This document shows positions 1 to 52,976 of a DNA stretch of 52,976 bases, one piece after another. Source of the stretch: a phage. The first letter of the stretch is position 1. Each line of letters begins with the position of its first letter. Below the pieces are notes generated by a model. It had not been told where the DNA came from and ran no database searches. It saw only the letters and a list, made by a program, of their open reading frames with translations. The stretch is taken from the NCBI GenBank assembly GCA_014691105.1, contig GCA_014691105.1_4891.1. One strand, written 5' to 3'. The position numbers and the translations under genes were made by a program.

Positions 1-144
1 AAAAAAAATAAAAAACCGGACTGATAAATAATTCGTAGGCATGTCTAAAGCCAGGCGTGGCAAGCTTCGGTGATATTTACTATGTTATTGTATGTTAGTG
101 TGCGTTATAATATATTTATTATTCAACAGATGAGTTGTGCAACT

Positions 145-651
145 ATGGATCCAATTGTAAAAGTATTTGAAGGTAAAAATATCACATTTTCATCAATTAA
201 GAGGGGTACCAAAATGGCATCCCTCATTGTTGTTAAAGGAAGCGATTTAGCTAAAGCGCTGGGCTACAGCTACGCGGAAAAACTTTATAAAAGGTTAGAC
301 AGCGATTATAAAATTACTGATGACAAAGGAGCAGTATGGGCAACTGAACCTGGTATTTATCAGGCTATATTCGGTTCGCAGCTTGAATCAGCTAAAGCAT
401 TTCAGCGCTGGGCATACGAAGAAGTATTTCCCACCATTCGTGGGAATGGTTATTACGTTACACCAGAGCTTCAACCAGCGCTGGATCTACTGTCTGATGA
501 AATAGACTTACTACGTGCATATGCTACAGCTGACTGCCACGGAAGAGCAAGGCTTAAGTCAAGAATTATGACGGTATGGAAAAAACAAGTAGAAAATGGT
601 AACTCTTTGGACCGCGTAGTCCAGATTTTAAAAGGAAACAGTGCATGGTAA
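145..651 (+). CDS. Bro-N/KilA-N domain protein (antirepressor-like DNA-binding protein)
   Basis: N-terminal VKVFEGKNITF...VVKGSDLAKALGY resembles the Bro-N motif; the ORF track starts at GTG 70 but in-frame ATGs at 130/145 precede the domain; stop overlaps the next start (ATGGTAA). Confidence 0.5.
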   Translation: MDPIVKVFEGKNITFSSIKRGTKMASLIVVKGSDLAKALGYSYAEKLYKRLDSDYKITDDKGAVWATEPGIYQAIFGSQLESAKAFQRWAYEEVFPTIRGNGYYVTPELQPALDLLSDEIDLLRAYATADCHGRARLKSRIMTVWKKQVENGNSLDRVVQILKGNSAW

Positions 652-1076
652 ATATTCGTGTTATTGGCCAGAACTTTGAGAGAAAGATGGCTAAAAAATT
701 CAACGAATCTTTTGGACTTGACTGCCAGCGTAACCTGCAGCAATCAATAAATGGCGGGGATGACTTGCTTGGTGTACCGTTTTTCAGCGTTGAACTGAAG
801 AAGCACAAGACCAAGTCTATCGGAACATGGTGGAGACAGTGTGCGGCATCAGCAAAGGCTCAGAACAAGATGCCGGTACTGATATACGAACTACCAAGAA
901 AACAGCCTACCGTGGTGATGAATAAGGCTGATGTGATTGACTGTTTTCCAAGTGGCACGACTTTTAACGAGGCATCGAACCGCCTCTTTGTGGGTCTAGT
1001 AGAATTAACATGGGAACAATTTTGCCGGGTCTACAACTATTACGTTGCGCCCGGCACTCAATATCACGTCAATTAA
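645..1076 (+). CDS. putative PD-(D/E)XK nuclease, Hjc-like resolvase fold
   Basis: GQNFERK...GGDDLLGV...FFSVELKK matches a G.FER / D / E.K nuclease motif arrangement; translationally coupled to the upstream Bro gene. Confidence 0.4.
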   Translation: MVNIRVIGQNFERKMAKKFNESFGLDCQRNLQQSINGGDDLLGVPFFSVELKKHKTKSIGTWWRQCAASAKAQNKMPVLIYELPRKQPTVVMNKADVIDCFPSGTTFNEASNRLFVGLVELTWEQFCRVYNYYVAPGTQYHVN

Positions 1077-1258
1077 TCTTGTTTCAGCTCGTCGCAAATA
1101 ACACGCTGATTTTTGGCGGGGATAATACCAAGATTTAGCAGGGTGTATGGACTATCAGCGACGCATTGTTCAACGGTAGTCCATTCAGGTTTGGATTCAA
1201 CAATTTCGTAATTACAGTCGTGAGCTGCAATACATGTTGCCAGGATTAAGCCAATCAC
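1073..1258 (-). CDS. hypothetical small early protein
   Basis: ORF track; GTG start overlaps the stop of an upstream unlisted small ORF (GTGA). Confidence 0.4.
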   Translation of the reverse strand: MIGLILATCIAAHDCNYEIVESKPEWTTVEQCVADSPYTLLNLGIIPAKNQRVICDELKQD

Positions 1259-1434
1259 AAGTAATCTCCATCAACCAGAAACTCAAACAATTGGTTGTAG
1301 ACGTTGCAACCTTTAGCGAAAGAGCTTTCAGCAGGTTTACCATCGCGGACAATCATCATATACTCACCGCCATGGATGTCCACCCAGTATTGCATGCCAC
1401 CTTTGACCGGATTACGTTGCAGAAATTTAAACAT
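1255..1434 (-). CDS. hypothetical small protein (59 aa, below ORF-track cutoff)
   Basis: Hand translation of the minus strand gives MFKFLQRNPVKGGMQYWVDIHGGEYMMIVRDGKPAESSFAKGCNVYNQLFEFLVDGDYL; ATG overlaps the upstream stop (TAATG) and its TGA overlaps the downstream GTG. Confidence 0.4.
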   Translation of the reverse strand: MFKFLQRNPVKGGMQYWVDIHGGEYMMIVRDGKPAESSFAKGCNVYNQLFEFLVDGDYL

Positions 1435-1679
1435 TATTTGCTCCTGATTCCAAGTTTATTCAATAACCAAATTGTCATGTCAACCCAGGTTAACGGTACA
1501 GTTTTCGGGGGTTGATAATCCCAGCAGCTTGCAGTTCTTTGTATTTCTGCTTGGCGCCGCTCCGCTTCGCGTAATACCGCATCGTCAGAAGTGCCGGCAG
1601 AAAAAAGATCGGTAACACCAGATAAATCGCGTTGATTAACACGTCGAGCAATGTCATATAAATCATCCTTAGAAAACAT
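1434..1679 (-). CDS. hypothetical protein
   Basis: ORF track, same strand as neighbours, coupled to downstream gene. Confidence 0.45.
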   Translation of the reverse strand: MFSKDDLYDIARRVNQRDLSGVTDLFSAGTSDDAVLREAERRQAEIQRTASCWDYQPPKTVPLTWVDMTIWLLNKLGIRSK

Positions 1680-1855
1680 AAGCCAATACCATAAGAATTA
1701 TCAGAAAGATCCCAACCAGCTTCCTCATAGCCCGACCTTCAGCATATGCAGGATTCACAACAGAATACTCAACAACATGTTTACAGCGGACCATAAGGCC
1801 TCCACTTGTGGGTTAATTCAATCATGAGGACTTTTGGCAAATCCTCATTGTTGAA

Positions 1856-2059
1856 TCACTCCATCATTACCTGAACTATTATTATACACTCTTTATTGAA
1901 GCGGGTAAACACCTTTCCTCCATTGGTGCGTTTAGCCCCAGATTTTAGAGCTGACTGGCACCAGACCTGCCACTCCTCAACTGTCAAGAATTTTTGCTCA
2001 GCTTTGGGTGGTAGTCCATTGGCAAGGTCTACCGTAGTAAATTTGACTAATGGCATCAC
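1856..2059 (-). CDS. hypothetical protein
   Basis: ORF track; start overlaps the stop of the 2056..2478 gene. Confidence 0.4.
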   Translation of the reverse strand: MMPLVKFTTVDLANGLPPKAEQKFLTVEEWQVWCQSALKSGAKRTNGGKVFTRFNKECIIIVQVMME

Positions 2060-2478
2060 TTGACCTCAAATTTTGACTCGTCATATTCCGGATCAGTCAC
2101 GTCCCGGGTCGCACAATTTTTGATTGCCTCCCAGTAACGTTGGGCGTCATCGCCATCGACATAAACTGTCCAGTGGCCGTAACCACCTTCAAATCTGTCC
2201 CAGGCTTGTTCCCAGACTTTGCCATCTTCCAGCTTGTACCAAGTTGGACGACTGTCAAACTCGCGGATTGGATGGTACCCCATCAAAGGATTCATCAGGT
2301 CAATAATGTCTTCCCGACTAATCTCCTGGTTCTCCCACAGCACCGTCATGAATTGCTCAAACTTGAAGGCGTTTGGCAGAACTTTGATGACTTCACCATC
2401 ACGATATACGGTATAGGTGCCATCTTCGCATTTTGCACTGTACATGTTTCTCTCTCCTATTGATATAATTTCAATCAT
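2056..2478 (-). CDS. hypothetical protein (140 aa)
   Basis: ORF track; no recognisable motif. Confidence 0.5.
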   Translation of the reverse strand: MIEIISIGERNMYSAKCEDGTYTVYRDGEVIKVLPNAFKFEQFMTVLWENQEISREDIIDLMNPLMGYHPIREFDSRPTWYKLEDGKVWEQAWDRFEGGYGHWTVYVDGDDAQRYWEAIKNCATRDVTDPEYDESKFEVK

Positions 2479-2513
2479 GAACTATCACAACTTTGGATAG
2501 TTCATTGTTGAAA

Positions 2514-2702
2514 CTATACTAACTTTGTTGCGATCTGAATTGTCAGCCGGAAATCTTCCATCAAGTTATCAAACTCTTTGGAACCACCAACAGCATCAGA
2601 TATTTGATCTTTCACGATTTGGGCATTTGATTCCAGTAATTCAATCAGGTGCGCCAATTCGTCTTCAGTCAATTTCAGGTCTTTCATAATGCATCCACCC
2701 AA
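2514..2702 (-). CDS. small early protein, MKDLKLT paralogue family member 1
   Basis: Likely true start at internal Met (about 2687) giving MKDLKLTEDELAHLIELLES...; N-terminus shared with two other small ORFs. Confidence 0.5.
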   Translation of the reverse strand: MGGCIMKDLKLTEDELAHLIELLESNAQIVKDQISDAVGGSKEFDNLMEDFRLTIQIATKLV

Positions 2703-2941
2703 GCCATAACTTTTGCCAGTCTTACAACGTCTTCATGGTCCCGCTCGCCATCAGAAAATTCGCTGGCGATGATACCCATAATTGACGCCAGATTCATGTT
2801 GATGATGTAGGCGTGTTGGCGCACTTCATCAATTCCTGAATCTATCACCAGTTCCGCAAATTCTTGTGAACCTTCATCCCATTCAGCCCAATACTGCTCA
2901 GCATAAAAGTCCAGTTCTTTTTTCATCTCAATATCAGTCAT
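2684..2941 (-). CDS. hypothetical acidic protein (85 aa)
   Basis: ORF track. Confidence 0.5.
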   Translation of the reverse strand: MTDIEMKKELDFYAEQYWAEWDEGSQEFAELVIDSGIDEVRQHAYIINMNLASIMGIIASEFSDGERDHEDVVRLAKVMAWVDAL

Positions 2942-2946
2942 TTTGA

Positions 2947-3147
2947 TTACTCCTCAGAACCTGAAAATTTGTCGTCAATGGCTTCAACAATATAATCAAG
3001 AGTTGAAGTGTGAGAACTATCAGAAAAAGTGCCCATCTTCTCTAACTCAATCATCATATCCCGCAAGGCCATCGCCTGGTCTTTGGTCAGTTTGATTTTA
3101 AGCATGTTTCTCTCCTGTTGATTGTGAATAATTTCAATTGATGGCAC
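2947..3147 (-). CDS. small early protein, paralogue family member 2
   Basis: Internal Met (about 3105) gives MLKIKLTKDQAMALRDMMIELEKMG..., similar N-terminal pattern to the MKDLKLT proteins. Confidence 0.45.
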   Translation of the reverse strand: MPSIEIIHNQQERNMLKIKLTKDQAMALRDMMIELEKMGTFSDSSHTSTLDYIVEAIDDKFSGSEE

Positions 3148-3169
3148 TACTTGAGTGCCATCTCAAAAA

Positions 3170-3796
3170 TTACTCTTCAGTTTCTTGTGCTTCAGTTTCA
3201 GGTTTTTTGCCAGTTACTGATTTGCCATCAGTCACTTTACCAGATTTTACATCATTACGGTAATAGGACATATAGGATTGGACAACACGTTTTGCCCTAA
3301 TATCATCCGCTTCCATCCCACAGGCTTTCATGGCATCGGCCAGCGCCAATTTGGAATCTTCTTTGTCCATCAAATTGTAGTCCTTGAATACTGCATAGCA
3401 GGTATCTTTGGTTGACGGACCGGATGAAGTTTTGCGGGTGCCACCAGCAGATGCTCGTGTTGTCGCAACTTTGACCTCTTCAACTTCCAGTTGGTTAAGC
3501 TCATCAAATAGGGCTTTCACCAGCACTTCTTTTGAGTCTTTGACACTTACAGAACTTTCATCATTAAGGGACTTAATCATCTTAATGATCTGGTTATTGG
3601 CAAAGTACTGCAGGCTATCCATCTGCACTACAATAGTCCCAAGACTTTCAGTAGTCAGACCAGATTTTACAGACTCGACAGAAAAAGCGGAAGTCAGGTA
3701 AACATAGTTGATAGTAGTCATTGATGTATCCTCGTCAATAGAATTTTGGTAAGCGCCAATCCCTGGCAAGTAAGTCCAAACATGACAACTTGACAA
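3170..3796 (-). CDS. hypothetical protein (up to 208 aa)
   Basis: ORF track; probable start at an internal Met (MTTINYVY...). Confidence 0.5.
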   Translation of the reverse strand: MSSCHVWTYLPGIGAYQNSIDEDTSMTTINYVYLTSAFSVESVKSGLTTESLGTIVVQMDSLQYFANNQIIKMIKSLNDESSVSVKDSKEVLVKALFDELNQLEVEEVKVATTRASAGGTRKTSSGPSTKDTCYAVFKDYNLMDKEDSKLALADAMKACGMEADDIRAKRVVQSYMSYYRNDVKSGKVTDGKSVTGKKPETEAQETEE

Positions 3797-3814
3797 AAGT
3801 TGTCATGATTGAAA

Positions 3815-3994
3815 TCACTTCAATTTGTTAAGTATTTTGGTCAATAGCTCAACTCTTTCTTCCTGGTCAGTAGGGTCAAAGTTTTCAATTGACTCCTTCC
3901 AGTCCTCCAGCAGTTCCTTTTCATTAAATATTGAAATGTCAAGAAATTCAACCAATAACTCAACTTCTTTTTTAGTCAATTTCAAATCTTTCAT
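3815..3994 (-). CDS. small early protein, paralogue family member 3 (59 aa, unlisted)
   Basis: Hand translation: MKDLKLTKKEVELLVEFLDISIFNEKELLEDWKESIENFDPTDQEERVELLTKILNKLK, preceded by a GAGGG-type RBS; the overlapping plus ORF 3825..4025 is low-complexity and probably spurious. Confidence 0.5.
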   Translation of the reverse strand: MKDLKLTKKEVELLVEFLDISIFNEKELLEDWKESIENFDPTDQEERVELLTKILNKLK

Positions 3995-4008
3995 CTTGTA
4001 TGACCCTC

Positions 4009-4212
4009 TTACCCTTGATATTTGACTACTTGCGACTGGATGAAATCAACACAATCTTCCACGTCCATTGATTCAAAATCTGGAACTGGTCCATTATTAA
4101 TGTTGACACACCATAGCCCTTCATTACAATCGTACCAAAGCGTATAGTTGTCTTTCATAATAGTTACTCCTGCTATTAGTTTCCAGGCGTGGCTACTGCT
4201 TCCAATAGCCAC
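4009..4212 (-). CDS. hypothetical small Cys-containing protein
   Basis: ORF track; likely start at internal Met (MKDNYTLWYDCNEG...) preceded by AGGAG. Confidence 0.4.
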   Translation of the reverse strand: MAIGSSSHAWKLIAGVTIMKDNYTLWYDCNEGLWCVNINNGPVPDFESMDVEDCVDFIQSQVVKYQG

Positions 4213-4518
4213 TAGTTGAAACTATTACCAGCGTTACTATCAACAAGAAACATGTTACCAAATTGTTAAAGAGCGGTCTGGTACTATTCGACCAGGTAAA
4301 GTTATTATTTGCGCATCTTGACGACACGCGCCAGACAAGACGCTTGACACATTCATCATTCGTCTTGATGTAATAATTATAGGCCAGTCAATCAATGTTG
4401 TACATAAAAGAATTGCAAGTTTATGCAAGTTTTTAGAAATGATAATCACTTGCGATTGAGAGTGGTTCTCATATGCAATTGATATAGTTTCACATGTAAT
4501 TACTCACTTCAAAATGGT

Positions 4519-4575
4519 CGGCAGGGGTTATAATCACATAGGGGTGCCACTTAAAGGAGCCGGCGAAATTATTTA
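4519..4575. repeat. copy 1 of a ~55-bp intergenic repeat (GGGGTTATAAT..AGGGGTGCCAC..AGGAGCCGGCGAAATT)
   Basis: Aligns at roughly 70% identity with 4693..4750 when read by eye; contains a perfect TATAAT. Confidence 0.6.
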
Positions 4576-4692
4576 TAAAAATATAATTTCAATCTGAATT
4601 ATAGACGCTTTGTGCTATAACGGCTGAAGTAGTTCATACGGTAATTGTATCAATCGCAATAGTTACCAGAGTAATCATTTCAATTGAAATAG

Positions 4693-4750
4693 GTGCGGCG
4701 GGGGGTAATTTCGCAGGGGTGCTACCTGCCAGGAGCCAGCGGAATTTTTT
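4693..4750. repeat. copy 2 of the intergenic repeat (GGGGGTAATTT..AGGGGTGCTAC..AGGAGCCAGCGGAATT)
   Basis: See copy 1; both lie in the divergent control region between the leftward and rightward early genes. Confidence 0.6.
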
Positions 4751-4967
4751 ATTTTTTCTCTATTTTCTCCTTATCAGGACCAATCATCATCAGAGTAACA
4801 CGGCAGGAGCTAACCTTTTGCTTATCACAATAATAAGTGAAGCCCCTCTAAAATTTTTTTATATTTTTCGGAAATTGTGTAGACACTCACTAAAAAGTGG
4901 TGTACTTTCTCTCCTCCACGCGCTATCATTAATGTGAATCATCAAACGGCCTCACGGTCTCCTACTT

Positions 4968-5456
4968 GTGGGTAACATTATGAAAATTGTTCAATTAGAG
5001 CCATATCCGCCTCAATTGGCTATCGTTTGCAGCGAAAAAGAGCACGAAGAGCTCCAAAAACTGATGGATTTGCCTGATTTTGGCAACTGGAATGACCGGG
5101 AAACACGTAATGCATCTACCTTTACATTCTCTCGCGTTAACTATCCGTACCTGTTAATCGTCGTCGAACTGTACCACCCGGACGACCTGAAGTACAACAC
5201 CATTTCCCACGAGGGCATTCACGTAATGTCGTCGCTGATGAACTATGTAGGGCTTAAATACGACCCAGAAAACGATGAATGGTACGCATATCAGCATGAT
5301 TTCATCGTAAATGCCATTTGTAAGGCCCATGACGAGTATATAGAGCGCCAAAAAACGCCAAAAACTAAGCCAAAAATAGAAACAGGTAACCATCCTGCAA
5401 TACTGCCACAAGACGTAATGAACTCGCTTTTGACTGACACTACTGGGGACTTTTAG
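4968..5456 (+). CDS. hypothetical protein with HExxH motif (possible zinc metallopeptidase-like)
   Basis: HEGIH motif in ISHEGIHVMSSL; first gene of the rightward block; start could be GTG 4968 or ATG 4980. Confidence 0.45.
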   Translation: MGNIMKIVQLEPYPPQLAIVCSEKEHEELQKLMDLPDFGNWNDRETRNASTFTFSRVNYPYLLIVVELYHPDDLKYNTISHEGIHVMSSLMNYVGLKYDPENDEWYAYQHDFIVNAICKAHDEYIERQKTPKTKPKIETGNHPAILPQDVMNSLLTDTTGDF

Positions 5457-8093: not shown

Positions 8094-9542
8094 ATGAACC
8101 TTGACTTTCACCTGCATGACAGACAAGGTGCCGCTCTGCAGTCTCAGGCAACTGAGATTCTGTACGGTGGCGCCGCTGGTGGTGGTAAGTCTCACCTTAT
8201 GCGTGTAATGTCAATTATCATGTGCTGCATGATACCTGACTTGCAGATTTACCTTTTCCGCCGAAACTATAACGACCTTACGGCTAACCACATGGTTGGT
8301 CCCACAAGTTATCCTGCCTTGCTGGACGGTATGTGCAAAGCTGGCAAGTGCAAGATTAACTACTCGAGCAACACGATTAAATTCTGGAACGGTGCGAACA
8401 TCAAACTCTGTCACCTCCAGTACGAAAAAGATATTTATACCTACCAGGGTGCGGAGATTCACGTTCTGCTGATGGATGAGCTTACTCACTTCACAGAAAC
8501 GATGTACCGCTTCTTGCGTAACCGTGTCCGACTCGGTGCTCTTAAAGTCCCTGAGAACTTTTTCCGGCCACTGCCACTCATCTTTTGTGGGTCAAACCCC
8601 GGTGGTGTTGGTCACAACTGGGTCAAGCGTACTTTCGTAACTGCTGCTCCTCCGATGAAAATCGTTAAGCAAGATAAACGCGAAGGTGGTATGGCGCGTC
8701 AGTACATTCCGGCTAAGATGACTGATAACCCTACGCTGATGGAAAACGATCCTGACTACGGTGACCGTCTTGAAGGTCTTGGTGACCCGGCTCTTGTTGC
8801 TGCTATGAAAGAGGGTGACTGGGATATTGTTGCTGGTGGTGCGCTTGACGACGTATGGTCAACCAAGTGTATTCTGCCTCGTATGCGTATTCCAAAAGGC
8901 TGGACTATCGAACGTTCTCTTGACTGGGGTTCTACTCACCCGTTCTCTGTTGGTATCTGGGCTATTGCAAATGGCGCTTCGCTTACAGACGACGAAGGCA
9001 ATGAGTACTTTATTCCGCGTGGTTCAATTATACGTATAGCTGAATGGTATGGGTGCTCTGAAAAAGAAGCTAACAGGGGTATTAAGCTATCTGCTGCCGA
9101 AGTCGCTCAAGGTGTTCTTCGCCTACAGGAAAATCTGCAGGCTGGTGGCTGGATTCAAAGCAACGTTAATCCTGGTCCGGCGGATAGTCAGATTTATGCG
9201 TGCAAGGAAAAAGACGTTGAGACTATCGCGAAGAAAATGGAAGACGAAGGCGTAACCTGGGTCAAGGCCGACAAGTCACAAGGTTCGAGAATAAATGGCT
9301 TAGAGCTATTCCGTCAGCTTCTGAAAAATGTTAAGATGGACGAAACGGAAAAGCCGGGCATTTATTTCATGGAAAACTGTCCAGCAGCCATAAACACGTT
9401 GCCGGTTCTGCCGCGTGACAAGAACAACACGGAAGATGTCGACACGAACTCTGAAGACCACGTATACGATGATTGTCGTTACATGGTGTTGCGTGGCATC
9501 AACCGTTATACTACCAAGCTCAAAATAAATATGGGACGGTAA
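8094..9542 (+). CDS. terL: terminase large subunit
   Basis: Walker A GGAAGGGKSH, Walker B-like VLLMDELTH, C-terminal nuclease-like region; followed directly by the portal gene. Confidence 0.85.
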   Translation: MNLDFHLHDRQGAALQSQATEILYGGAAGGGKSHLMRVMSIIMCCMIPDLQIYLFRRNYNDLTANHMVGPTSYPALLDGMCKAGKCKINYSSNTIKFWNGANIKLCHLQYEKDIYTYQGAEIHVLLMDELTHFTETMYRFLRNRVRLGALKVPENFFRPLPLIFCGSNPGGVGHNWVKRTFVTAAPPMKIVKQDKREGGMARQYIPAKMTDNPTLMENDPDYGDRLEGLGDPALVAAMKEGDWDIVAGGALDDVWSTKCILPRMRIPKGWTIERSLDWGSTHPFSVGIWAIANGASLTDDEGNEYFIPRGSIIRIAEWYGCSEKEANRGIKLSAAEVAQGVLRLQENLQAGGWIQSNVNPGPADSQIYACKEKDVETIAKKMEDEGVTWVKADKSQGSRINGLELFRQLLKNVKMDETEKPGIYFMENCPAAINTLPVLPRDKNNTEDVDTNSEDHVYDDCRYMVLRGINRYTTKLKINMGR

Positions 9543-50096: not shown

Positions 50097-52605
50097 TATT
50101 CTCGGTCTGAAATACTTTAAGCCAGAAGGGATTCCCCAAGTCTTCAAAGATATGAAGCGCTGGGCTATCTTTGAGCTGACGTACGAAGACGAGACCCTCG
50201 AAGTTCAATCCAAACCTAAGAAACCTGCAAGAGCGCCATCAGGCCGTTCCTTCAGCACAACAGTGCCTGAAGAGTGGATGACTTTCGACGACGCCCTGAC
50301 ACGTTGTATCCGCAATCGTGAAATGAAGATTAAAGCTGTACAGGGTAACATCACCTTTGTGCCGGCTTTGATTGTTCCTCGCCAGTGGTACTTTGTTGAC
50401 CTGGACAACCATGATGATAATCCAGACATTGAAGCTACCCACAAAGCGATAATTGAGGGGACTCGTGGCGCTTATGCTGAGACGTCAATCTCCGGCAAAG
50501 GGCAACACATTGCAATCCCTTTACCCTGGACTGCAGCAACATCCAAAGAGAAAGACGAACAGCTGGACATCAAAATCCAGAAGGCTGAGATGTTCCTGGT
50601 AATGACAGGCAATGTATTGAGCGAGTTCAATGCTAATCCTGTTTCAGCCCGTGAATGGCATGCAGCAATTGAGAAGTTCTTTCTTGAATCAAGCGCACCT
50701 GACATTGATGTTGAGTTTGAGCAAGACGAAGACCGTGGCGAAGAGTATGACAAAGAGCTATACGAACAGTTAGCCGACAATACTCGCTGGGCGCTTGAAC
50801 ATTATCTTAGCGACTATGCACCAGACGGTGTTGGTGTGAGTAATGACGGTTCCGAACGTTTAAGCCGCATACTCAAAGACTTGCTTCGTGTAACCCGTAA
50901 CTATGAAGTTACACAACGCATCTTCATGGCCAGCAAAGCTGCAGCATATGAAGGCCGCAGACCAAGTCGACATAACCTGTCTGTTGATAAGTATCATCAG
51001 TGGTTCAGTCGTGTCGGTAAGACTGTGCTGAAAGAGATGCAACGTGACGGCTTATTCGTTAAGACCAAGTTTGCTCTTGACATCAACAAAGAGTTAGCCA
51101 AGAATTCAGGTGTCTCCCTGGCTGAGAACGTTGAGTTCAAGGTCAACGACGACATTCTGCCTTCTGATGTATTCGTCAGGACGGCCCCGTCCGGGTTTAA
51201 ACGGCTTATTGCTGAGATACAGGATAACATATCTCCTGCTAACAGGGTTAACGACTATGCCATCGGCACAGCTCTTAACATCCTGAGCAACTGCGCCGGT
51301 CGCAAGTATGTTTGTCCAGTAGGCGGTCATGCTAACTTCCTGGTAACCAACATCATTCTTGTGGGTGGTTCATCAATCGGTAAATCCCTGTATACCGAAA
51401 TGTTCCCACAAATCCAGGCAAGTTTACCTGACACATCACCTATCAGTCTTAACCGTATCCCAAGGGAACAGACTTTTGCAACCAGGACGTTTGCTGAACT
51501 GATGTCCAACCCGTCATACCATTCAGTTCAGTTGTTCTATCCTGAATTTGGTCTGGCTTTAGGTTCAGGCTTACGCATGAATCCTAACAACCCGGACAAC
51601 TTTCAGAAAGCTCTGATGGACGCTTCAACCAAGCGTAAGGTTGGCGGTATACTGACAGGTATCAAACGTGCTAATGCTGACAATGATGTCAAGACAGTAA
51701 GTGAACCGTGTTACTCTATCCTGGGTGACTCAACTCAAGAGCTTATCCTTGACAACACCCGGAAGCAAGACTTCTCAAGTGGCTTTTTGCCCCGCTTCCT
51801 GTTCATCCCGAACTACGAACGAGCGGAGTTTGCCAAACCTGAGAAGGTAGGACGTCGCCAGCAGATTCGCCGTACGTCCTTTTCAAAAGAACTGATTGAG
51901 AAGCTGGAAGCAATCGCTTATGTGAATGCTATCCCGCCTAACGGTAAACTAAGGCACGACCCGATTCCTATTTACGATGAGTCGGACGATGATGACTTCC
52001 TGTACGAGTACCAGTGCAATATTAATGATATGCGCCAGTATTACAGGGACAACGAAGTAGCGTCTGCCTTTGTGGGCCGAATGGGTGAGTATGTATTCAA
52101 TATAGCAGCACTGATTGGCTTACTCGACAACTGGGATGCTCCTGTAATGACCAGGGACAACATCGAATGGGCTTACAAATATGTTCTTCGTTGTATAACT
52201 GCCTGGGTCAATAACACAAGCAGGATAGTCGCACCACCAACTACCAACGCCGAAGTAGTGGACGGCTTCCTCAAAGTCTACAGGGACATTTTGGCCCTTT
52301 ACACCAAAAGAGGATGGTCTGGCATAGTCAAGCATTATCCTGAAGGTGTTGTAAGAAGCTTACGGGAAGACCATCTGAAAATGAACGGGCTTAGCATATA
52401 TGCTATCCGGCAATCATTAAGTTGGTTCAAATCCAATTACGGCTTTAACATAACCGCTAATAACAAGGTTATTGACGGTATGTTGCAGGATATGATTGAC
52501 CAGGACTATTTAGCAGTCCAAATATACAAACCCACAAGAGGGAAATCGGCAAATATCTACTGTTTAACCGAACGGGGATACGACGAAGCCAAGAAACTTA
52601 AGTAA
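50071..52605 (+). CDS. bifunctional primase-polymerase (AEP) fused to an SF3 helicase
   Basis: AEP motif I WYFVDLDNHDD and motif II SISGKGQHIAIPL in the N-terminal third; Walker A LVGGSSIGKS in the C-terminal half. Confidence 0.75.
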   Translation: MTMTSQPSDILGLKYFKPEGIPQVFKDMKRWAIFELTYEDETLEVQSKPKKPARAPSGRSFSTTVPEEWMTFDDALTRCIRNREMKIKAVQGNITFVPALIVPRQWYFVDLDNHDDNPDIEATHKAIIEGTRGAYAETSISGKGQHIAIPLPWTAATSKEKDEQLDIKIQKAEMFLVMTGNVLSEFNANPVSAREWHAAIEKFFLESSAPDIDVEFEQDEDRGEEYDKELYEQLADNTRWALEHYLSDYAPDGVGVSNDGSERLSRILKDLLRVTRNYEVTQRIFMASKAAAYEGRRPSRHNLSVDKYHQWFSRVGKTVLKEMQRDGLFVKTKFALDINKELAKNSGVSLAENVEFKVNDDILPSDVFVRTAPSGFKRLIAEIQDNISPANRVNDYAIGTALNILSNCAGRKYVCPVGGHANFLVTNIILVGGSSIGKSLYTEMFPQIQASLPDTSPISLNRIPREQTFATRTFAELMSNPSYHSVQLFYPEFGLALGSGLRMNPNNPDNFQKALMDASTKRKVGGILTGIKRANADNDVKTVSEPCYSILGDSTQELILDNTRKQDFSSGFLPRFLFIPNYERAEFAKPEKVGRRQQIRRTSFSKELIEKLEAIAYVNAIPPNGKLRHDPIPIYDESDDDDFLYEYQCNINDMRQYYRDNEVASAFVGRMGEYVFNIAALIGLLDNWDAPVMTRDNIEWAYKYVLRCITAWVNNTSRIVAPPTTNAEVVDGFLKVYRDILALYTKRGWSGIVKHYPEGVVRSLREDHLKMNGLSIYAIRQSLSWFKSNYGFNITANNKVIDGMLQDMIDQDYLAVQIYKPTRGKSANIYCLTERGYDEAKKLK

Positions 52606-52650: not shown

Positions 52651-52976
52651 ACTCTTTTTGCTCCGGTAGACTAGTTATGGAATAAATAAACCGTGTTTTT
52701 CGAATTAAGTGCACTTAAGCTACTGTTTTATATACTCTTTTCTTTTTACATGAATTAGTAAATATATGGAGCCCTTTATAAAGAAAAAGGGGGGTAATAA
52801 GGGGATCCAAGTACCGGATAAAAGGGGGTATATATTTATTTATTATTATTATTATTATTATATATTATTAATTATATTAGAAGTAATAAAAACAGCTACT
52901 TAGAGGTGTCTATATGTATGATCCGGTTTATCTCTTTATTAATATCAGAACCGGATGAAAAAAATTTACGCTGGCG
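52643..52976. repeat. AT-rich non-coding terminal region with direct repeats, a palindrome and an (ATT)n microsatellite
   Basis: TTTTATATACTCTTT at 52643-52657 and 52726-52740; palindrome TTAAGTGCACTTAA at 52705-52718; (ATT)6-7 near 52838-52860; two GGGGGTA motifs. Confidence 0.6.

What the first reader, a model, noticed from the sequence alone, without database searches (positions are those of the whole stretch)
4450..4967. Divergent early control region with a duplicated ~55-bp element
The ~500-bp gap between the leftward and rightward early blocks contains two imperfect direct repeats (4519..4575 and 4693..4750) sharing the blocks GGGG(G)T(T)A(T)AAT, AGGGGTGCYAC and AGGAGCCRGCGRAATT. The first copy holds a perfect TATAAT. 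Related GGGGGTA motifs recur in the right-end non-coding region. These could be repeated promoters, regulator binding sites or a small structured RNA.
Basis: seen in the sequence. Interest (0 to 1): 0.6.

Follow-up and report, generated by a model that had tools for sequence, protein, structure and literature searches.

The report
Duplicated element marking terminal-repeat boundary
The two-copy element is real and ancient, and its second copy sits exactly where this phage's roughly 4.7-kb terminal repeat (and so the right end of the packaged DNA) stops, which makes it more likely part of the DNA-packaging cut signal than a pair of promoters or a small RNA.

Summary
The window is a Rosemountvirus (BP63-like myovirus). 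The repeat is real: 4495-4576 against 4670-4752 scores 41, against 15.4±2.4 for shuffles (0 of 2000). Both copies are present in all 8 lineages compared, always 175-177 bp apart.

The new point is location. In three relatives with determined ends, the right boundary of the long direct terminal repeat (DTR) falls inside block 3 of copy B. These are fHy-Eco03 (PhageTerm plus restriction digests), AEV23 (PhageTerm DTR of 3915 bp, which equals the exact distance between the homologous sites) and vB_SalM_Sz (identical 4263-bp ends). In window coordinates the boundary is GGAGCC|AGCGG at 4737|4738. The left terminus is ACGCT|GGCG at 52972|52973, 4 nt before the window's junction.

The motif GCYRGCGRAA occurs only at these two cuts and in copy A.

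Rfam, RNAalifold and shuffle-controlled folds give no conserved RNA. Sigma-70-like hexamers are not positionally conserved, unlike the true early promoter at 4880-4908.

Best reading: a cis-acting DTR-boundary or packaging-termination module, with an uncut paralogue (copy A) 176 bp inside. A promoter role is not excluded.

It is a new member of a known kind and of moderate interest.

The parts
4495..4576 (+). Copy A of the element. It is the uncut paralogue. It comprises a TGAAA-like start, G-run plus TATAAT (4523-4534), AGGGGTGCCAC (4540-4550) and AGGAGCC|GGCGAAATT (4555-4570, with the cut-like centre at 4561|4562).
   Evidence: It is the more conserved copy (63-97% identity between orthologues). 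It contains GCCGGCGAAA, one of only three GCYRGCGRAA sites in the circularised genome. It is not the terminus in any of the three phages with mapped ends.
4670..4757 (+). Copy B of the element plus its T6AT6 tail. It comprises G-run plus TAATTT (4700-4711), AGGGGTGCTAC (4715-4725), AGGAGCC|AGCGGAATT (4731-4746) and TTTTTTATTTTTT (4745-4757).
   Evidence: The 13-mer occurs only here and, inverted, at 3-15.
4737..4738 (.). Predicted right boundary of the direct terminal repeat, which is also the right physical end of the virion DNA: ...CAGGAGCC | AGCGGAATTTTTT...
   Evidence: The boundary falls at the homologous position in three relatives. In Sz the record ends ...CAGGAGCC and the next base in the left copy is AGCGG. 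In fHy-Eco03 the annotated repeat ends ...AAGCCCC|GGCAAATTTTTT. In AEV23 the distance from the L site to GCGCC|GACGG is exactly 3915 bp, the DTR length its authors report from PhageTerm. The LPSEYT record is broken at the same place. S144 restriction mapping puts an end in this gap.
52970..52976 (+). Left terminus core GCT|GGCG, with the cut at 52972|52973. The window is opened 4 nt inside the repeat and continues at position 1.
   Evidence: The Sz record starts at GGCGAAAAAAAT, and its right-hand copy is preceded by ...TTTACGCT. The fHy-Eco03 right repeat starts at ...TTGCC|GGCGCAAAAAG. In AEV23, foreign DNA is fused exactly at |GGCGG. The birk record is contiguous across the window's junction.
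1..15 (+). AAAAAAAATAAAAAA run immediately inside the left terminus. It is the inverse of the T6AT6 run outside the right boundary.
1..4737 (.). Body of the predicted direct terminal repeat. With 52973-52976 it totals 4741 bp. It carries the Bro-N/Ant-like and PDDEXK/RusA-like genes and the leftward block of small early genes.
   Evidence: Inferred from the two boundary positions. Gene content is. fHy-Eco03 has the analogous repeat of 3699 bp with 11 genes.
4640..4681 (.). Three 15-bp-spaced iterons between copies A and B: GGTAATTGTATC, CGCAATAGTTAC and AGTAATCATTTC. In relatives these are the palindromic GTAAT-N-ATTAC.
   Evidence: They are part of the fixed 175-177-bp A-to-B spacing.
4880..4908 (+). 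Conserved rightward early promoter TAGACA-17-TACTTT. It is not part of the repeat and serves as the contrast case.
   Evidence: It is invariant in sequence and position in all 8 lineages.
52789..52833 (+). Compressed third relative of the element upstream of the left terminus: GGGGGGTAAT-AAGGGGAT-CCAAGTACCGGATAAAA-GGGGGTATAT.
   Evidence: Its distance to the left cut is conserved, with G-runs at -184 to -187 and -149 to -152 and CC|GGA at -157 to -160.

Best explanation
The element is a conserved cis-acting DNA module at the inner (right) boundary of a roughly 4.7-kb non-permuted direct terminal repeat (DTR).

Copy B is the working copy. The packaged chromosome ends inside its third block (GGAGCC|AGCGG, 4737|4738). 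The same quasi-palindromic core, GCY|RGCGRAA, is at the left terminus (ACGCT|GGCG, 52972|52973).

The most likely mechanism has two steps. The terminase starts at the left site. After one genome plus one repeat it meets copy A, the three iterons and blocks 1-2 of copy B on the DNA it has just packaged, and it makes the terminating cut in block 3 of B. In this reading, A and the upstream part of B act as a termination-accessory signal, in the way cosQ works in lambda.

What is shown: the position of the terminus by homology, the shared core motif, the deep conservation, and the fixed A-to-B spacing.

For: 1. Three independent end determinations in relatives put the right DTR boundary at the homologous base of copy B, and none puts it at copy A.
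- fHy-Eco03: PhageTerm plus restriction digests, DTR of 3699 bp.
- AEV23: the published PhageTerm DTR of 3915 bp equals exactly the distance from the L site to copy B; the distance to copy A would be 3740 bp.
- Sz: the record has identical 4263-bp ends.

2. Supporting observations.
- S144 restriction mapping places a physical end in this gap and excludes cohesive ends.
- The LPSEYT record is broken at copy B.
- The AEV23 assembly fuses foreign DNA exactly at the left cut.
- The window itself is opened 4 nt from the left cut.

3. GCYRGCGRAA occurs 3 times in the circularised genome: at L, A and B, all on the + strand.

4. The 13-mer A6TA6/T6AT6 occurs only next to the two cuts.

5. The left site resembles the inverted copy B better than the direct copy B in 7 of 7 usable lineages, because an A-run lies on the unique-sequence side of both cuts.

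6. A and B are ancient paralogues kept in all 8 lineages.
- Their spacing is 175-177 bp, while the distance from B to the promoter varies from 142 to 169 bp.
- There is no concerted evolution: A-B identity is 0.49 within genomes and 0.485 between genomes.

7. The non-coding DNA is 70-75% identical where the adjacent protein is only 36-40% identical.

8. The G-run motif is confined to the two boundary regions and is not spread over operon starts.
Against: No reads or virion DNA of this particular phage were available, so the terminus is placed by homology only.

The left site lacks blocks 1 and 2 at a comparable distance, so those blocks cannot be a general requirement for cutting.

Copy A has the better match to the left core yet is not a terminus. 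The core alone therefore does not explain cutting, and the role of A is unexplained.

One paper reports 'COS' packaging from PhageTerm for the Rosemountvirus vB_SenM-1. The S144 authors proposed short rather than long repeats.

PhagePromoter predicted + strand promoters over block 1 of both copies in S144, and copy A in the window has a perfect TATAAT.

The GCYRGCGRAA motif was defined after seeing the three sites, so its count is descriptive and not a test.
Confidence: 0.55

Rival explanations
1. The copies are tandem rightward promoters. Each copy would be a -10-type promoter (G-run plus TAnnnT), recognised by host RNA polymerase with or without a phage factor, and would add to early rightward transcription. 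That the terminus lies in copy B would be secondary or coincidental.
For: There is a perfect TATAAT at 4529-4534, and TTGAAA-16-TAATTT in copy B. PhagePromoter annotations cover the homologous parts of S144. Tandem early promoters just inside the entering end are known from T7 (own knowledge).
Against: The window's own consensus scan finds no + strand promoter here. The -35 to -10 spacing is 14-15 nt in most copies and lineages, and the best-scoring hexamer pairs are not at homologous positions. In four lineages the copy A '-10' is TAAACG or TAATCG. The family's clear early promoters look different (TAGACA or TTTACA, 17 nt, TACTTT or TACAAT) and are positionally invariant. Blocks 2 and 3 and the fixed 176-bp spacing are not explained.
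Confidence: 0.2
2. The region is a replication origin or another nucleoprotein assembly site. G-run boxes plus 15-bp iterons plus AT-rich tracts would bind an initiator, and the repeat boundary would merely lie nearby. T7's primary origin is a comparable case, with two tandem promoters followed by an AT-rich stretch.
For: There are three iterons at 4640-4681 and AT-rich tracts after each copy. A related G-run element lies next to a (TTA)n tract directly downstream of the primase gene. The cumulative GC-skew minimum is at 4-6 kb.
Against: The GC-skew minimum also coincides with the switch in transcription direction, so it does not discriminate between the two readings. No initiator gene or DnaA boxes were identified. 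This reading does not explain why the cut falls in block 3 or why the core is shared with the left terminus.
Confidence: 0.1
3. The region is a T5-like injection stop signal. The repeat-rich non-coding DNA at the inner end of the left terminal repeat would pause DNA entry so that the small leftward genes in the repeat are expressed first.
For: The layout matches T5: a long DTR full of small early genes, ending in a conserved repeat-rich non-coding block (T5 comparison from own knowledge).
Against: There is no evidence of two-step transfer in this group. The T5 stop region was not compared at sequence level, and I expect no similarity.
Confidence: 0.05
4. The element is a small structured RNA, or an intrinsic terminator that closes rightward transcripts at the repeat boundary.
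For: Copy B of fHy-Eco03 and SE1_KM folds as GCCGGGG...CCCCGGC followed by a U-run (-22.6 and -26.1 kcal/mol, z = -2.7 and -3.1). Copy A of KE25 and SOI901 also folds well (z = -2.6 and -2.2).
Against: The pairings differ between lineages. RNAalifold finds 0 consensus pairs. The window's copies fold no better than shuffles. Rfam has no match, and the terminator scan finds nothing here on the + strand. No rightward gene lies upstream whose transcript would need terminating.
Confidence: 0.05

Closest known systems
Non-permuted long direct terminal repeats with sequence-specific start and stop of packaging (T5; phiCbK-like phages, PMC3556154)
   Same: The repeat is several kilobases long. Both boundaries are exact and conserved among relatives. 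The right boundary lies in a non-coding gap, and the repeat is collapsed to a single copy in most assemblies.
   Different: Here both boundaries share a short core (GCY|RGCGRAA) flanked by A/T runs, and the right boundary lies in one of two ancient paralogous elements of about 80 bp that are 176 bp apart. I know of no such description for T5 or phiCbK.
Lambda cos (cosQ-cosN-cosB)
   Same: The cut site is a partly two-fold-symmetric core (usually CGCC|GGCG at L). The accessory sequences differ between the initiating and terminating cuts. The proposed termination accessory signal lies on the already-packaged side, as cosQ does.
   Different: No cohesive ends are produced (S144 data). The two cuts are 4.7 kb apart and define a repeat. 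There is no sequence similarity, and terminase binding is untested.
T7 concatemer junction, with short repeats SRL/SRR beside the 160-bp terminal repeat and a palindrome used for hairpin-primed duplication (own knowledge)
   Same: Repeated short elements sit next to the repeat boundaries. An inverted repeat lies just upstream of the left cut (52921-52956). The single repeat copy in concatemers must be duplicated (PMC5000459).
   Different: The repeat is about 30 times longer. The phage encodes no RNA polymerase (S144 paper). The repeated elements differ in sequence and number.
SPP1/lambda-type small-terminase binding arrays (pacL/pacR boxes, cosB R sites)
   Same: Repeated boxes flank or precede the cleavage point at a fixed distance.
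   Different: No small terminase has been identified in this phage: the ORFs next to TerL have no family assignment. No binding data exist.

Membership tests
DTR terminus / terminase cut site of a non-permuted long-terminal-repeat phage | A physical end of the virion DNA maps to the site | tested here: met
   Met by homology only. fHy-Eco03, AEV23 and Sz all place the right end at the homologous base of copy B and the left end at the homologous GCY|GGCG. S144 restriction mapping agrees. No data exist for this phage itself.
DTR terminus / terminase cut site of a non-permuted long-terminal-repeat phage | The DNA between the two sites is present at both ends of the chromosome (two-fold read coverage) | not testable with these tools
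   No reads are available. It is shown for relatives: identical 4263-bp ends in Sz, and PhageTerm results for fHy-Eco03 and AEV23.
DTR terminus / terminase cut site of a non-permuted long-terminal-repeat phage | The boundary position and sequence are conserved among relatives | tested here: met
   Block 3 (SCC|RRC followed by a T-run) and the L core (GCC|GGCG followed by an A-run) are present in all 8 lineages.
DTR terminus / terminase cut site of a non-permuted long-terminal-repeat phage | Terminase binds and cleaves the site | not testable with these tools
   TerL is identified at 8094-9542. There is no biochemistry.
Sigma-70 promoter | -35 and -10 hexamers 16-18 bp apart, at a conserved position | tested here: not met
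   The spacing is 14-15 nt in most copies, and the best hits are at non-homologous positions. This contrasts with the invariant promoter at 4880-4908.
Sigma-70 promoter | A transcription start about 7 nt downstream of the -10 hexamer | not testable with these tools
   I did not search the paper library for transcript-mapping data on this group, and none of the papers read reported any. Only in-silico promoter predictions exist, for S144.
Intrinsic terminator | A GC-rich hairpin immediately followed by a U-run | tested here: not met
   Not found in the window. It is present only in copy B of fHy-Eco03 and SE1_KM.
Known structured RNA family (Rfam) or conserved RNA fold | A match to a covariance model, or base pairs supported by covariation | tested here: not met
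   0 matches at gathering threshold and only noise at E<=10. RNAalifold finds 0 pairs across 15 copies.
Cohesive-end (cos) site | Complementary single-stranded ends that anneal | not testable with these tools
   The S144 authors saw no change in restriction pattern between fast and slow cooling and excluded cohesive ends. One paper reports COS from PhageTerm for vB_SenM-1.
T5-type injection stop signal | Two-step DNA transfer that pauses at the inner end of the left repeat | not testable with these tools
   Only the layout matches: a repeat-rich non-coding block at the inner end of a DTR that carries small early genes.

The most novel reading that the evidence does not exclude
The left terminus and copy B are the same asymmetric site in mirror orientation: an A-run, a few T-rich bases, then GCC|GGC, read from the unique-sequence side on the top strand at L and on the bottom strand at B. 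A site-specific nuclease would nick the top strand at L and the bottom strand at B. Strand-displacement synthesis from the two 3' ends would then duplicate the 4.7-kb repeat. This would give a sequence-defined substrate for the old question of how long terminal repeats are duplicated from concatemers that carry one copy. Copy A, with the best core but no cut, would be a back-up or decoy site, or a pause signal.
Probability: 0.2. Interest if true: 0.65.

Novelty: new member of a known kind. Interest (0 to 1): 0.4.

Why it matters
Most deposited genomes of this phage group are collapsed, arbitrarily opened assemblies. Several annotate 'hypothetical proteins' across this non-coding block. Recognising the element gives a base-exact predictor of both termini and of DTR length for about 60 related Salmonella, Escherichia, Klebsiella and Erwinia phages, several of which were isolated as biocontrol or therapy candidates.

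Biologically, it offers a compact, deeply conserved pair of sites, plus an uncut paralogue as a built-in control. With these one could test how a terminase distinguishes start, stop and 'do not cut' sites, and how a multi-kilobase terminal repeat is regenerated.

Tried and rejected
- **Known RNAs.** Rfam at gathering threshold over the whole window gave nothing, and at E<=10 over 4400-5000 gave only eukaryotic snoRNA/lncRNA noise. ARAGORN found no tRNA or tmRNA.
- **RNA folds.** Single-sequence RNA folds of both copies on both strands were no better than shuffles. Folds of all orthologues gave lineage-specific pairings only. RNAalifold on 15 copies found 0 pairs.
- **Concerted evolution or co-evolution of A and B.** Rejected: identity is 0.493 within genomes and 0.485 between genomes, and 1068 of 5040 permutations score at least as high.
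- **C-to-L spacing equal to A-to-B spacing.** Rejected: 157-160 bp against 175-177 bp.
- **Simple inverted-repeat reading of the cut core.** Weakened once more lineages showed the L core is itself palindromic (CGCC|GGCG). Only the flanking A-run carries orientation.
- **Search for more distant relatives.**
  - The invariant 18-mer in viral contigs returned only the same phages plus one chance hit, L024.
  - The 15-mer scan of metagenomes returned almost only chance hits. One true relative (L048) was 95% identical, which is too close to help.
  - tblastn with the neighbouring protein found the same 60 records.
- **AEV23 record ends.** They were unusable as direct evidence because the record carries foreign IS5/methyltransferase DNA. 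The published DTR length could still be checked against the site-to-site distance.

Full report
**What the window is.** BLAST of the region against GenBank phages finds about 60 relatives. Most are Rosemountvirus (BP63-like myoviruses of about 53 kb). Loughboroughvirus (S144, ZCSE2, SE4, AEV23) matches at about 73% identity. Four deeper lineages also match: KE25, Erwinia phage SOI901, SE1_KM and fHy-Eco03. The finding lies in the gap between a leftward block of small genes and the rightward early block.

- A gapped local alignment extends the repeat to 4495-4576 against 4670-4752. It scores 41, against 15.4±2.4 for dinucleotide shuffles (maximum 28; 0 of 2000 reach 41).
- Copy B is the best non-self match of copy A in the whole genome.
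- BLAST also aligns the window's copy B to copy A of the Loughboroughviruses.
- GGGGGTA recurs at 52790 and 52824. The total count of that motif is at chance level; what stands out is where the copies sit.

**Conservation.**
- Both copies are present in all 8 lineages aligned.
- The non-coding block is better conserved than its surroundings. Within Rosemountvirus it is 95-97% identical, against about 89% when the flanks are included.
- In the deep lineages the DNA is 70-75% identical, while the adjacent protein (4980-5456) is only 36-40% identical.
- A and B do not evolve in concert: identity is 0.49 within genomes and 0.485 between genomes. They are therefore old paralogues, each under its own constraint.
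- The distance between the centres of their third blocks is 175-177 bp in every lineage. The distance from B to the downstream promoter varies from 142 to 169 bp.

**The key result is the location.**
- *fHy-Eco03.* The record annotates a 3699-bp left terminal repeat whose last base falls in the homologous copy B...TTAAGCCCC|GGCAAATTTTTTATTTTTTT. The authors determined the termini with PhageTerm and confirmed them by restriction digests. Its right-hand repeat starts at ...TTATTGCC|GGCGCAAAAAG.
- *vB_SalM_Sz.* This phage is nearly identical to the window in this region. Its record carries identical 4263-bp ends. It starts at GGCGAAAAAAAT, preceded in the other copy by ...TTTACGCT. It ends at ...CCTGCCAGGAGCC, followed in the other copy by AGCGGAATTTTTTT.
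- *AEV23.* The paper reports a PhageTerm DTR of 3915 bp. In its record, the distance from the homologous left site to GCGCC|GACGG in copy B is exactly 3915 bp. The distance to copy A would be 3740 bp.
- *Further support.*
  - The LPSEYT record is broken at copy B.
  - The AEV23 assembly fuses foreign DNA exactly at the left cut.
  - The window itself begins 4 nt after the left cut, and birk shows that the window's two ends are contiguous.
- *In window coordinates.* The right boundary is 4737|4738, the left boundary is 52972|52973, and the predicted repeat is 4741 bp.

**What the sites share.**
- GCYRGCGRAA occurs three times in the circularised genome, at L, A and B, all on the + strand. This motif was defined after the fact, so the count is descriptive.
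- The L core is usually the palindrome CGCC|GGCG.
- A6TA6 occurs only just inside L and, inverted, just outside B.
- With 30 nt on each side of the cut, L matches inverted B better than direct B in all 7 usable lineages. L matches A better in direct orientation in 6 of 7. So both real cuts have an A-run on their unique-sequence side.
- L otherwise has its own conserved architecture: a G-run element at about -185 to -150, a (TTA)n tract, an inverted repeat, and AACCGGA at -20 and +21.
- Blocks 1-2 are therefore specific to the right boundary.

**Alternatives tested.**
- *RNA.* Rfam gives nothing and there are no tRNAs. The window's copies fold no better than shuffles. RNAalifold finds no consensus pair in 15 copies. 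Terminator-like folds exist only in copy B of fHy-Eco03 and SE1_KM, and a different fold in copy A of KE25 and SOI901.
- *Promoters.* PhagePromoter calls exist for S144, and copy A has a perfect TATAAT. Against this, the spacing is mostly 14-15 nt and the best hexamer pairs are not homologous across lineages. The family's evident early promoters are canonical and positionally fixed. The G-run motif is also not found at other operon starts.
- *Origin of replication.* Iterons, AT-rich tracts and a GC-skew minimum are compatible with an origin, but they do not discriminate, because the skew follows the direction of transcription.

**Interpretation.** Concatemers of DTR phages carry one repeat copy per genome, and it must be regenerated at packaging (PMC5000459). 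The best-supported reading is that the element belongs to the signal that defines the right-hand cut. Block 3 of B is the cut site. Copy A, the iterons and blocks 1-2 of B would act as context on the already-packaged side, functionally like lambda cosQ. That terminase reads them is inferred, and why A is spared is unexplained. The mirror arrangement of L and B is also what a staggered-nick, strand-displacement model of repeat duplication predicts. I rate that model at about 0.2.

**Contrary evidence.**
- One paper reports COS packaging for the Rosemountvirus vB_SenM-1 from PhageTerm.
- The S144 authors guessed short repeats.
- No data exist for this phage itself.

**Verdict.** The 'early control region' reading is partly right, and the RNA option is rejected. 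The element is a DTR-boundary module, a new member of a known kind. DTRs had been reported for two relatives. The papers retrieved in the searches on this phage group and on terminal-repeat boundaries do not describe the duplicated element or the shared terminal motif. Interest is moderate.

Noticed in passing
window 4640-4681: Three iterons at 15-bp spacing (GGTAATTGTATC, CGCAATAGTTAC, AGTAATCATTTC) lie between the two copies. In relatives they are near-perfect palindromes of the form GTAAT-N-ATTAC (for example TGTAATGATTACA in SOI901), which looks like an operator array for a dimeric DNA-binding protein.
   Followed up: partly
window 52921-52956 and 16-22: An inverted repeat, ATCCGGTT...AACCGGAT, lies 17 nt upstream of the left cut. 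Direct AACCGGA repeats sit at -20 and +21 around the cut. In the lineages where the script located the left cut, CC|GGA lies at about -20 and, in four of the six, also at +21. The arrangement recalls the palindrome next to the T7 concatemer junction.
   Followed up: partly
window 52789-52880: A compressed relative of the element (GGGGGGTAAT-AAGGGGAT-...ACCGGATAAAA-GGGGGTATAT) is followed by a (TTA)n/AT-only tract of about 50 bp, about 185 bp downstream of the primase gene (stop at 52605). Its distances to the left cut are conserved. It is a possible origin or packaging-initiation accessory region.
   Followed up: partly
L148 (MW413353.1 SPHG1) 2800-3065: The SPHG1 record has an inversion with one breakpoint inside copy A, between block 1 and block 2. 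The record is 47 kb. This is either a real rearrangement that splits copy A or a misassembly.
   Followed up: no
L016 / L015 (OR810919.1 AEV23): The AEV23 record contains E. coli-like DNA (an IS5 transposase and a methyltransferase) fused exactly at the phage's left terminus. The stated genome length of 55,637 bp is therefore probably an assembly chimera.
   Followed up: partly
window 4255-4449 (-), 4693-4833 (+), 4719-4937 (+): Some records (KE24, SPHG1, KE25, SE1_KM) annotate small ORFs as hypothetical proteins inside this non-coding block. The 4693-4833 and 4719-4937 ORFs overlie copy B and are broken by 7-nt and 19-nt indels in relatives. The 4255-4449 ORF contains a strong leftward promoter-like site (4404-4376). 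These ORFs are probably spurious.
   Followed up: partly
PP583539.1 ('Listeria phage 220426122051'): This record is labelled as a Listeria monocytogenes phage but is a 53-kb Rosemountvirus, 97% identical to the window across the region. The host label is probably a contaminant or a labelling error.
   Followed up: no
window 4980-5456 (+): The first gene outside the repeat is annotated as Ku/Gam-like in S144. Its homologue was detected in fHy-Eco03 virions by LC-MS/MS. Pfam gives no match here (PHROG 1365, function unknown). A virion-borne DNA-end-binding protein encoded right next to the terminus would be worth checking.
   Followed up: no
window 19248-19268: The only other GGGGGTA pair in the genome forms an inverted repeat (GGGGGTA...TACCCCC) overlapping the start of ORF 19194-21326. 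It may be a hairpin or terminator-like inverted repeat and appears unrelated to the boundary elements.
   Followed up: no
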